This document shows positions 62,666 to 64,000 of a stretch of 64,000 nucleotides of DNA, in pieces. The notes below the pieces were generated by a model, which was not told the origin of the DNA, made no database searches, and saw only the letters and a program-made list of their open reading frames with translations. The DNA is taken from NCBI RefSeq assembly GCF_016026235.1, contig NZ_CP065613.1. The stretch is one strand, 5' to 3'. Position 1 is the stretch's first letter. Each line of letters starts with the position of its first letter. The position numbers and the translations under genes are program-made. Origin of the DNA: Escherichia coli (GTDB lineage Bacteria > Pseudomonadota > Gammaproteobacteria > Enterobacterales > Enterobacteriaceae).

Positions 62666-62880
62666 ACCTGTACTCCAATTATTGACCAGTTCCTCACCGC
62701 GCCTCCCTCTCCGGCGGCGCGAATGAACATCTTATTGGTTATCACATCCGACACAAATGTTGCCATTCCATTGCTTAATCGAATAAAAATCAGGCTACAT
62801 GGGTGCTAAATCTTTAACGATAACGCCATTGAGGCTGGTCATGGCGCTCATAAATCTGGTATACTTACCTTTACACATTG

Positions 62881-63243
62881 GGGCTGATTCTGGATTCGAC
62901 GGGATTTGCGAAACCCAAGGTGCATGCCGAGGGGCGGTTGGCCTCGTAAAAAGCCGCAAAAAATAGTCGCAAACGACGAAAACTACGCTTTAGCAGCTTA
63001 ATAACCTGCTTAGAGCCCTCTCTCCCTAGCCTCCGCTCTTAGGACGGGGATCAAGAGAGGTCAAACCCAAAAGAGATCGCGTGGAAGCCCTGCCTGGGGT
63101 TGAAGCGTTAAAACTTAATCAGGCTAGTTTGTTAGTGGCGTGTCCGTCCGCAGCTGGCAAGCGAATGTAAAGACTGACTAAGCATGTAGTACCGAGGACG
63201 TAGGAATTTCGGACGCGGGTTCAACTCCCGCCAGCTCCACCAA
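62881..63243 (+). ncRNA. ssrA: Transfer-messenger RNA (tmRNA, 10Sa)
   Basis: 363-nt match GGGGCTGATTCTGGATTCGACGGG...GGTTCAACTCCCGCCAGCTCCACCA; internal tag ORF GCA AAC GAC GAA AAC TAC GCT TTA GCA GCT TAA (ANDENYALAA) at ~62970..63002. Confidence 0.95.
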
Positions 63244-63289
63244 AATTCTCCATCGGTGATTACCAGAGTCATCCGATGAAGTCCTAAGA

Positions 63290-63322
63290 GCCCGCACGGC
63301 GCAAGCCCTGCGGGCTTTTTTG
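63290..63322 (+). terminator. ssrA intrinsic terminator
   Basis: AGCCCGCA-CGGCGCAAGCCC-TGCGGGCT stem followed by TTTTTT. Confidence 0.7.
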
Positions 63323-63446
63323 TATCTGCAATTTGTCCCGCGAAGTCCGAAGAGAACTAATTAAATCCGAACCTTTTAGGCCCATTGATAGGCCCAACGA
63401 AAAGCTCTATTGTTTTCGTTGGGCCTAAACGCATGGAGACTCCCCA

Positions 63447-64000
63447 TGGCAAGAAAAACCAAGCCGTTAACCGATACGGAAATCAAAGCCGCCAAACCTA
63501 AAGATGCCGATTACCAGCTGTATGATGGTGACGGGCTTACTCTGTTAATCAAGTCCAGTGGTAGTAAGCTCTGGCAGTTCCGTTACTATCGACCTCTGAC
63601 AAAGCAGCGAACCAAGCAGAGCTTCGGTGCCTACCCTGCCGTCTCACTTTCTGATGCGCGTAAACTCAGAGCCGAATCTCGAGTTTTATTGGCAAAAGAT
63701 ATTGATCCTCAGGAACATCAGAAAGAACAGGTGAGGAATTCTCAAGAGGCCAAAACCAACACCTTCTTGTTAGTTGCCGAGCGTTGGTGGAATGTGAAGA
63801 AAGCCAGCGTGACAGAGGACTATGCCGACGATATCTGGCGCTCGCTTGAGAGAGATGTTTTTCCAGCAATCGGTGATATCAGTGTCACTGAGATTAAGGC
63901 TCATACTCTGGTTAAAGCAGTTCAGCCGGTTCAGGCTAGAGGTGCATTAGAAACTGTTCGCCGTCTTTGTCAGCGTATTAACGAAGTCATGATTTATGCG
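63447..64000 (+). CDS. intA: P4-family tyrosine integrase, N-terminal ~184 codons; continues beyond window end (prophage/island integrated at ssrA)
   Basis: ATG after a GGAGA RBS; translation MARKTKPLTDTEIKAAKPKDADYQLYDGDGLTLLIKSSGSKLWQFRYY... is typical of P4-like integrase N-terminal (DUF4102/arm-binding) domains; ORF runs off the window so it is absent from the ORF track. Confidence 0.85.

What the first reader, a model, noticed from the sequence alone, without database searches (positions are those of the whole stretch)
63391..63427. 13-bp perfect inverted repeat immediately upstream of the integrase start
AGGCCCAACGAAAA ... TTTTCGTTGGGCCT forms a 13-14 bp stem with a ~9-nt loop ending ~20 nt before the integrase RBS; a shorter AGGCCCA direct repeat precedes it. 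Its position suggests an operator for an integrase or excisionase regulator, or an RNA structure occluding the integrase translation start.
Basis: seen in the sequence. Interest (0 to 1): 0.3.

Follow-up and report, generated by a model that had tools for sequence, protein, structure and literature searches.

The report
Integrase arm-binding sites over intA promoter
The palindrome in front of the integrase gene is most likely a pair of oppositely oriented docking sites for the integrase's own N-terminal domain, part of the five-site layout already annotated for phage P4, so it is real but ordinary.

Summary
The inverted repeat is real. It is a perfect 15-bp repeat, TAGGCCCAACGAAAA (63389-63403) / TTTTCGTTGGGCCTA (63413-63427), with a 9-nt spacer. 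It is the longest perfect inverted repeat in the window and is not expected by chance.

It lies in attL of a CP4-57-like, P4-family island inserted at the 3' end of ssrA. It ends 18 nt before the intA ATG at 63446.

It is not an isolated hairpin. A third copy, TAGGCCCA, sits 12 nt upstream at 63377-63384. Two more 12-nt-spaced copies lie on the other arm of the attachment site, next to attR, in complete islands.

A second island lineage, found across Enterobacterales, carries TAGGCACC in all five positions. Its integrase differs mainly in the Arm-DNA-bind_3 domain.

The P4 GenBank record annotates the same layout as "attP arm sequence repeats": two direct copies, core, two direct copies, one inverted copy, then int.

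The three int-side sites bracket a conserved promoter-like -35/-10 pair. The likely function is therefore intasome assembly plus negative autoregulation of intA, as shown for P4 Int, KplE1 IntS and PAI I536 IntI.

An RNA hairpin that blocks translation is not supported. This is a new member of a known kind, of low interest.

The parts
62880..63242 (+). ssrA (tmRNA gene). Its last ~20 nt (63223-63242, AACTCCCGCCAGCTCCACCA) are the att core shared with attR.
   Evidence: ARAGORN and Rfam RF00023 at 292.8 bits. An imperfect copy, GACTCCGCCAGC-CCACCA, lies at the far end of the island in K-12 (L008 22425-22442) and in Z0117EC0036 (L073 20170-20187).
63286..63321 (+). Intrinsic terminator of ssrA (GCCCGCA...TGCGGGC followed by T6). 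It lies downstream of the core, so the island supplies it.
   Evidence: Inverted repeat I2 and a terminator-like site. Invariant in alignment A1.
63270..63284 (+). CATCCGATGAAGTCC block, a candidate binding site for the recombination directionality factor (AlpA/Vis type). This is an inference.
   Evidence: Conserved between the CP4-57-like islands and the P4 P' arm (CATCCGAGAAAGTCC) in alignment A4. It resembles the TorI sites GTTCG/GATCG/GTCCG (PMC2951348).
63335..63371 (+). GTCCCGCGAAGTCCGAAG ... TTAAATCCGAA: further RTCCG-type blocks just upstream of the arm sites. They are candidate AlpA sites at about -50 and -70 from the predicted transcription start. This is an inference.
   Evidence: Direct repeats D1/D2 and the RTCCG scan. 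They align with P4 GTCCTGCG..TTCCGAGG and TTGAAATCCGG.
63377..63388 (+). Arm-type site P'1 (TAGGCCCA core in a 12-nt unit), abutting the predicted -35.
   Evidence: It changes to TAGGCACC in class-2 islands together with the other copies.
63385..63390 (+). Predicted -35 hexamer TTGATA of PintA.
   Evidence: Consensus scan: 9 of 12 matches with a 17-nt spacer. Class 2 has TTGTTA at the same place. This is a prediction only.
63389..63403 (+). Left arm of the inverted repeat, which is arm-type site P'2. The conserved part is TAGGCCCAACG (63389-63399). It sits in the promoter spacer.
63408..63413 (+). Predicted -10 hexamer TATTGT, inside the spacer of the inverted repeat.
   Evidence: Across 57 related loci, apart from one decaying locus (L058, which has TTTTGT and a broken int), it varies only at positions 3-5 (TATGGT, TAATGT); T1, A2 and T6 are kept.
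63413..63427 (-). Right arm of the inverted repeat, which is arm-type site P'3 in inverted orientation. The conserved part, 63417-63427, reads TAGGCCCAACG on the minus strand. It covers the predicted transcription start.
63435..63439 (+). Shine-Dalgarno GGAGA of intA. It lies outside the stem.
   Evidence: Sequence and RNA fold.
63446..64000 (+). 5' part of intA, a P4-family tyrosine integrase, cut by the window end. Residues 8-95 are the Arm-DNA-bind_3 domain.
   Evidence: Annotated intA in genomes that are identical or 97% identical here. Pfam PF13356, PF22022 and PF00589. 35% identical to P4 Int over 402 aligned residues.

Best explanation
The inverted repeat is two of five arm-type binding sites for the N-terminal Arm-DNA-bind_3 domain of the island's own P4-family integrase, IntA.

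In the excised circle (attP) the layout would be: two tandem direct sites (P1, P2), about 55 nt, the core (3' end of ssrA), about 134 nt, two tandem direct sites (P'1, P'2), a 17-nt gap, one inverted site (P'3), 18 nt, then the int ATG.

Integrase molecules bound to these sites, while their catalytic domains hold the core, would build the intasome for integration. With AlpA and probably IHF they would build it for excision.

P'1 abuts the -35 of the only promoter-like element upstream of intA. P'2 sits in the promoter spacer and P'3 sits on the predicted start site. Occupancy by IntA should therefore also shut off intA transcription, giving negative autoregulation.

What is shown here:
- the five-site layout;
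- its co-variation between two island lineages;
- its identity with the annotated P4 layout;
- the presence of an arm-binding domain, and its divergence between the lineages.

What is inferred:
- that IntA, rather than AlpA, is the binding protein;
- the position of the promoter;
- the repression.
For: 1. The motif occurs three times within 51 nt and nowhere else in the window or in 27 kb of K-12 CP4-57 at 0 mismatches.

2. Related copies sit on the other arm of the attachment site. K-12 has TAGGACCAACAA-TGGGACCAAAAT, 55 nt before the attR core. Class-2 island Z0117EC0036 has TAGGCACCACAT-TAGGCACCATCA, 55 nt before the attR core, and its attL carries TAGGCACC three times. CU42ET-1 has the same attR pair, split by an IS66 element.

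3. Across 57 loci from many Enterobacterales genera only two discrete versions exist, and all copies switch together: CCCAACG to CACCTCA.

4. Integrase identity between the two classes is 73% in the arm-binding domain but 92-93% in the core-binding and catalytic parts. Of the 14 class-diagnostic residues in the first 110, 13 lie in Pfam Arm-DNA-bind_3, residues 8-95.

5. The P4 record NC_001609 annotates 12-nt 'attP arm sequence repeats' in the same order, orientation and spacing. Two lie 53 nt before the core. Two lie 112 nt after it, followed by one inverted copy at the int start. IntA is 35% identical to P4 Int.

6. The 8-nt cores are unchanged in every locus with an intact int except one. 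Core changes are seen in loci whose int is broken: L026, L027, L058 and L061.

7. The promoter-like site TTGATA-17-TATTGT overlaps the sites, and the critical -10 positions are conserved.

8. Precedent from the literature:
- P4 Int represses Pint by DNA binding near the start site (Piazzolla 2006, as summarised in PMC2951348 and PMC7286903).
- IntS, IntC, IntF and IntL, whose genes sit next to tRNA genes in arrangements predicted to be autoregulated, were shown to be so.
- IntI of PAI I536 represses its own promoter.
- The ssrA-intA intergenic length, 203 nt, fits the 208-228 nt typical of the predicted autoregulated class.
Against: There are no binding, footprint or transcription-start data for CP4-57 IntA in anything I could read, so the promoter is only a consensus match at 9 of 12.

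AlpA also differs between the two classes (78% identity), so co-variation alone does not exclude AlpA as the binder.

The association between the int-proximal sites and the N-terminal coding region could partly reflect physical linkage. Only the attR copies, seen in three genomes, escape that objection.

AlpA is reported to increase intA expression (Trempy 1994, as cited). A simple repression model does not explain that.
Confidence: 0.75

Rival explanations
1. The three TAGGCCCA sites are operators for AlpA, the island's 70-aa winged-helix excisionase and regulator. AlpA would bind them to activate or repress intA and to bend attL during excision.
For: AlpA is the only reported regulator of intA. 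AlpA differs between the two site classes, at 78% identity. In KplE1 the homologous factor TorI binds attL next to the -35 and represses intS.
Against: Copies of the motif lie on both arms of the attachment site, flanking the core. That pattern is typical of integrase arm sites, whereas directionality factors usually bind one arm.

P4 annotates the equivalent repeats as arm repeats.

A separate set of RTCCG-type blocks is conserved from P4 to both CP4-57 classes. These resemble the TorI sites and are better AlpA candidates.

The strain identical to the window keeps perfect sites although its island has no alpA.
Confidence: 0.12
2. The repeat acts as an RNA stem-loop in the intA 5' UTR. The transcript could be read-through from ssrA or start at an unrecognised upstream promoter. 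The stem-loop would attenuate transcription, alter stability or limit translation, as proposed for the 5'-UTR stem-loops of int in ICEKp1.
For: The hairpin is predicted to be stable: the 101-nt fold is -33.5 kcal/mol with z = -3.9. 94% of cells pair across 16 variants and 4 pairs change on both sides. In ICEKp1, int is read through from tRNA-Asn and stem-loops in the UTR lower its expression (PMC13023037).
Against: Here an intrinsic terminator with a T6 tail sits between ssrA and the repeat. In ICEKp1 the tRNA terminator is displaced.

No U-run follows the stem on either strand, and the SD and ATG lie outside it.

The only promoter-like site would start transcription inside the right arm.

All four double changes come from one class switch that also changes the three non-hairpin copies.

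Within classes there is no compensatory pair, and there are 7 disruptive against 7 wobble-compatible single changes.

The K-12 sequence itself has an A-A mismatch in the stem.

No Rfam family matches.
Confidence: 0.07
3. The repeat is a site for a host factor such as IHF, a cruciform, or a fortuitous palindrome with no function of its own.
For: P4 has a high-affinity IHF site in the int regulatory region, and the spacer is A/T-rich.
Against: No match to the IHF consensus WATCAANNNNTTR, even with one mismatch, anywhere in 63243-63446. Chance is excluded. A host-factor site would not switch sequence together with the integrase class.
Confidence: 0.03

Closest known systems
Phage P4 attP arm sequence repeats and Pint (Pierson & Kahn 1987; Piazzolla et al. 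2006; GenBank NC_001609)
   Same: The order, orientation and spacing are the same: two tandem 12-nt units, about 53-55 nt, the core at the 3' end of a tRNA-like gene, 112-134 nt, two tandem units, one inverted unit, then int. The integrase is homologous at 35% and the Vis/AlpA factors at 34%. The accessory RTCCG blocks are shared. The int promoter overlaps the repeats.
   Different: The recognition sequence differs: TTGGGGGCAT in P4 against TAGGCCCA or TAGGCACC here. In P4 the best promoter match puts the -10 at the junction of the two direct units, and the inverted unit overlaps the first int start codon. Here the -10 lies between P'2 and P'3, and the inverted unit ends 18 nt before the ATG. 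The target gene is ssrA rather than tRNA-Leu.
KplE1 (CPS-53) attL / PintS autoregulation paradigm (Panis et al. 2010, PMC2951348)
   Same: The integrase gene follows the tRNA-type gene in the same orientation, so attL overlaps the integrase promoter. An arm-type site overlaps the -10. Directionality-factor sites lie just upstream of the -35. Both proteins repress intS.
   Different: IntS is not a P4-family integrase. Its arm sites have a TAAA motif and a different number and arrangement. Repression was measured for IntS and is only inferred here.
PAI I536 intI promoter (Chitto et al. 2020, PMC7286903)
   Same: A P4-like island integrase that strongly represses its own promoter, with IHF involved.
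   Different: The binding sites were not resolved to the arm-repeat level in the text I read. It uses a different attachment site, and I made no sequence comparison.
ICEKp1 int 5'-UTR stem-loops (Liu et al. 2026, PMC13023037)
   Same: A P4-type integrase directly downstream of a tRNA-type gene, with stable stem-loops between the two genes.
   Different: In ICEKp1 the tRNA terminator is displaced, int has no promoter of its own when integrated, and the stem-loops act on a read-through RNA. Here the island brings a terminator and a promoter-like site, and the stem is made of repeated protein-site motifs.
Lambda attP arm-type sites (P1, P2, P'1-P'3)
   Same: Five arm-type sites split 2 + 3 around the core, bound by the N-terminal domain of a heterobivalent integrase (established knowledge; summarised).
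   Different: The orientations differ, and lambda int is not transcribed from a promoter inside attL.

Membership tests
P4-type attP/attL arm-type integrase site set | Three or more copies of one short motif on the int-proximal arm, two tandem at a 12-nt pitch plus one inverted | tested here: met
   63377, 63389 (+) and 63417-63427 (-). Same pattern as P4 3965-3942 and 3915-3926.
P4-type attP/attL arm-type integrase site set | Further copies on the opposite arm, at a fixed distance from the core | tested here: met
   Not visible in the window, which ends inside int. Found in related complete islands: K-12 L008 22346-22369, 55 nt before the core; Z0117EC0036 L073 20091-20114, 55 nt before the core. 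The P4 distance is 53 nt.
P4-type attP/attL arm-type integrase site set | Adjacent integrase has an arm-type DNA-binding domain and belongs to the P4 family | tested here: met
   Pfam Arm-DNA-bind_3, E = 1.5e-24, residues 8-95. 35% identity to P4 Int over 402 aligned residues.
P4-type attP/attL arm-type integrase site set | Site sequence co-varies with the integrase arm-binding domain | tested here: met
   There are two classes. All five sites switch together, 13 of the 14 diagnostic residues fall in the arm domain, and identity is 73% there against 92-93% elsewhere. Linkage is a partial confounder for the attL copies.
P4-type attP/attL arm-type integrase site set | Direct binding of the integrase N-terminal domain to the sites | not testable with these tools
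   Needs a gel shift or footprint with IntA residues 1-95.
Negatively autoregulated integrase promoter overlapping attL (KplE1/P4 paradigm) | tRNA-type gene and int in the same orientation, with an intergenic region long enough to hold attL (about 200 nt or more) | tested here: met
   ssrA ends at 63242 and the int ATG is at 63446, a gap of 203 nt. The range typical of the predicted autoregulated class is given.
Negatively autoregulated integrase promoter overlapping attL (KplE1/P4 paradigm) | The integrase promoter overlaps arm-type sites | tested here: inconclusive
   There is a consensus match, TTGATA-17-TATTGT, at 63385-63413, and it is conserved. No transcription start has been mapped.
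Negatively autoregulated integrase promoter overlapping attL (KplE1/P4 paradigm) | Integrase supplied in trans lowers promoter activity | not testable with these tools
   Needs a reporter fusion with and without IntA.
Intrinsic terminator / attenuator hairpin | G+C-rich stem followed by a U-run on the transcribed strand | tested here: not met
   The stem is followed by AAACGC on the plus strand and by TCAATGG on the minus strand. It was not reported by the terminator scan.
Translation-occluding 5'-UTR structure | The SD or start codon is sequestered in the conserved helix | tested here: not met
   The SD (63435-63439) and ATG (63446) lie outside the stem. Only two SD bases pair, and that is in a weak outer helix.
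Known RNA family (Rfam 15) | Covariance-model match | tested here: not met
   Only tmRNA matches in 62700-64000 at E <= 1. Nothing matches over 63377-63427.

The most novel reading that the evidence does not exclude
The two lineages of ssrA islands (TAGGCCCA type and TAGGCACC type) share the same core site, the same accessory-factor blocks and nearly the same catalytic domain. They may have switched arm-site specificity together with their integrase arm-binding domain. That would make them mutually orthogonal recombination modules that compete for one attachment site without cross-excising or cross-repressing each other. It would be the mirror image of the lambda/HK022 pair, where arm recognition is shared and core recognition differs. 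It would also be a natural, minimal template for reprogramming the arm specificity of P4-family integrases.
Probability: 0.4. Interest if true: 0.4.

Novelty: new member of a known kind. Interest (0 to 1): 0.15.

Why it matters
It assigns a concrete role to a conspicuous palindrome at one of the most heavily used integration hot spots in enterobacteria, the ssrA site. It also gives base-level candidate sites for IntA and AlpA in CP4-57, a cryptic prophage whose excision inactivates tmRNA (PMC10107115) and has been linked to biofilm and stress phenotypes. I found no mapping of the arm sites for this element.

In practice, the sites define the minimal attL/attP needed for engineering with this integrase. 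The two natural specificity classes offer a ready-made test of how Arm-DNA-bind_3 domains read DNA. The principle itself has been known since P4 and KplE1, so the gain is in detail and not in concept.

Tried and rejected
- Rfam scan of 62700-64000 at E <= 1 found only tmRNA and nothing over the repeat.
- Terminator scan: the repeat is not terminator-like on either strand.
- IHF consensus search over 63243-63446 with up to one mismatch gave no hit.
- Dispersed-repeat (REP-like) idea: the motif occurs nowhere else in the window.
- RNA covariation looked positive at first, with 4 double-changed pairs and 0 of 500 shuffles reaching the score. It reduces to one lineage switch that is shared by copies outside the hairpin, so I rejected it as evidence for RNA structure.
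- Q-like antitermination by AlpA, as in Pseudomonas aeruginosa, where the AlpA element also lies between -35 and -10: rejected. That AlpA has DNA-contact residues up to position 142 and an N-terminal ring, whereas E. coli AlpA is 70 aa and consists only of the Phage_AlpA domain.
- E. coli M9 was fetched to get another class-2 attR, but its island is truncated by an IS3 element.
- The original papers on slpA/alpA (PMC205312, PMC205313) and on P4 Pint (10.1099/vir.0.81875-0) are not held in the library. What I say about them rests on how later papers cite them.
- No mapped transcription start for intA was found.

Full report
**Context.** The end of the window holds smpB, then ssrA (tmRNA, 62880-63242, plus strand), then the start of a gene annotated intA in E. 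coli genomes that are 97-100% identical over this stretch. These include K-12, where the gene is the integrase of the cryptic P4-like prophage CP4-57. The protein has the Arm-DNA-bind_3, Phage_int_M and Phage_integrase domains and is 35% identical to P4 Int over 402 aligned residues. The 203 nt between ssrA and the ATG at 63446 are therefore the left junction (attL) of an island inserted at the 3' end of ssrA.

**The observation.** The repeat is real: TAGGCCCAACGAAAA (63389-63403) and TTTTCGTTGGGCCTA (63413-63427), 15 nt, perfect, with 9 nt between the arms. It is the longest perfect inverted repeat in the window. None of 30 Markov shuffles produced arms of 13 nt or more. A third copy, TAGGCCCA, lies 12 nt upstream at 63377-63384. 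The three copies are the only exact occurrences of this octamer in 64 kb. The SD is at 63435-63439 and the ATG at 63446.

**What surrounds it.** An intrinsic terminator (63286-63321) follows ssrA. It lies beyond the shared core, so the island supplies it. The only sigma-70-like promoter match on the plus strand between ssrA and intA is TTGATA (63385-63390), 17 nt, TATTGT (63408-63413). On that reading, P'1 abuts the -35, the left arm fills the spacer, the -10 sits in the 'loop', and the right arm covers the expected start site. A transcript from this promoter could not contain the left arm.

**Comparative evidence.** Alignment with other ssrA islands shows a second version: TAGGCACC-TTGT-TAGGCACCTCA, a 17-nt gap, then TGAGGTGCCTA. 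It occurs in E. coli M9 and CU42ET-1 and in a Klebsiella prophage record.
- A scan of one genome per species returned 61 loci from many Enterobacterales genera.
- The 57 that could be scored (including four E. coli loci fetched earlier) fall into just these two classes.
- All three copies always switch together, while the -35 and -10 positions stay.
- The conserved unit is the outer 8-11 nt of each arm. The inner A/T part varies, and K-12 itself has a mismatch there.
- The 8-nt cores are unchanged in every locus with an intact int, apart from one locus that has lost P'1. Core changes occur in loci with a broken int: L026, L027, L058 and L061.

**The other arm.** In K-12 the far end of CP4-57 carries TAGGACCAACAA-TGGGACCAAAAT, 55 nt before the imperfect attR core. 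In a complete class-2 island (E. coli Z0117EC0036) attL has the three TAGGCACC copies. The attR side has TAGGCACCACAT-TAGGCACCATCA, again 55 nt before the core. CU42ET-1 has the same pair, split by an IS66 element. The motif therefore flanks the core on both sides as 12-nt tandem pairs, and it changes with the island class even 20 kb away. Linkage to the int 5' end cannot explain that.

**The protein partner.** Between the classes the integrase is 73% identical in the arm-binding domain but 92-93% identical in the core-binding and catalytic parts. Of the 14 class-diagnostic residues in the first 110, 13 fall inside Arm-DNA-bind_3. AlpA also differs, at 78% identity, so this alone does not exclude AlpA. 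However, a separate set of RTCCG-type blocks is conserved between both classes and the P4 P' arm. These are CATCCGATGAAGTCC, GTCCCGCGAAGTCCGAAG and TTAAATCCGAA. They resemble the mapped TorI sites GTTCG/GATCG/GTCCG of KplE1. AlpA, Vis and TorI are the same kind of small winged-helix factor; AlpA and Vis are 34% identical. I therefore assign those blocks to AlpA and the TAGGCCCA sites to IntA. This assignment is an inference.

**P4 settles the anatomy.** The P4 GenBank record annotates 12-nt 'attP arm sequence repeats' as follows:
- two tandem units 53 nt before the core;
- two tandem units 112 nt after it;
- one inverted unit 15 nt further on, overlapping the int start.

This is the same plan as here, with a different recognition sequence (TTGGGGGCAT). 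The best promoter match in P4 also overlaps the tandem units.

**Mechanism.** The five sites are arm-type sites for the heterobivalent integrase and serve intasome assembly. This rests on established lambda and P4 knowledge, summarised. Because the three int-side sites bracket the promoter, IntA occupancy should also repress intA. The precedents are:
- P4 Int (Piazzolla 2006, as cited);
- IntS, IntC, IntF and IntL;
- IntI of PAI I536.

AlpA is reported to raise intA expression. Its candidate sites lie at about -50 and -70, positions that would suit an activator, but this is speculation.

**Rivals.** An RNA hairpin looks attractive at first. The fold is stable, and pair counts show four double changes. 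Against it:
- those four changes are one event, and copies outside the hairpin share it;
- within classes there is no compensatory pair, and single changes are 7 disruptive against 7 wobble-compatible;
- no U-run follows the stem, and the SD is not in it;
- a terminator separates the repeat from ssrA, whereas in ICEKp1 the tRNA terminator is displaced.

An AlpA operator remains possible at about 0.12. Host-factor and chance explanations are weak.

**Verdict.** It is not an RNA switch. This is a new, unmapped member of a well-known kind, and interest is low. The most novel reading that remains is that the two classes are orthogonal arm-specificity variants of one recombination module.

Noticed in passing
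L007 3140-3160 and 5860-5880; L009 19686-19709 and 22392-22420: IS66-family elements have inserted into class-2 arm-type sites twice independently. Both insertions start right after TAGGCA of a site, with 8-bp target duplications CCTCATAA (attL, E. coli tcmA_3) and CCACATTA (attR, E. coli CU42ET-1). This may be a target preference or simply chance.
   Followed up: partly
L006 2960-3180 (Klebsiella phage ST437-OXA245phi4.1 record, host flank): K. pneumoniae ST258/437/512 keeps a CP4-57-like attL scar downstream of the ssrA 3' end. It is 92.6% identical to window 63243-63418. It breaks off inside the right arm, with no integrase, and has one-base changes in P'1 and P'2.
   Followed up: partly
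L001 20204-25516: In the E. coli strain that is 100% identical to the window over the intergenic region (Res13-Lact-EB12-05), the island is a ~5-kb remnant: intA, two hypothetical genes and IS1. It abuts kbp, with no alpA, no attR and no glaH-csiR (gab) region. The integrase there is an orphan that could only autoregulate.
   Followed up: no
window 63286-63321: The ssrA terminator lies downstream of the att core, so the island provides it. After excision ssrA gets a different 3' flank. The K-12 attR core is also imperfect (missing bases), which matches the tmRNA with a U357 deletion described after CP4-57 excision (PMC10107115).
   Followed up: partly
window 63270-63284, 63335-63371: RTCCG-type blocks (CATCCGATGAAGTCC, GTCCCGCGAAGTCCGAAG, TTAAATCCGAA) are conserved with the P4 P' arm. 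They are candidate AlpA/Vis binding sites, similar to the TorI sites.
   Followed up: partly
L005, L006, L007 (upstream of the ssrA 3'-end copy): Other prophages, a P2-like Klebsiella phage and a phage with its own excisionase and integrase, sit in tandem in front of the CP4-57-like attL. ssrA is therefore occupied by stacked elements in these genomes.
   Followed up: no
L073 10022-13412: The complete class-2 island of E. coli Z0117EC0036 carries a retron Eco8-type reverse transcriptase and effector. The CU42ET-1 island carries TIR-domain and nuclease/helicase genes. These ssrA islands are defence-gene carriers.
   Followed up: no
L018 2400-2500; L035 2429-2503: Natural deletions occur in this region. 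Cedecea neteri lacks everything from P'1 to just before the ATG, so it has lost the promoter and the inverted repeat while keeping an intact int. Photorhabdus khanii has lost exactly one 12-nt unit (P'1).
   Followed up: no
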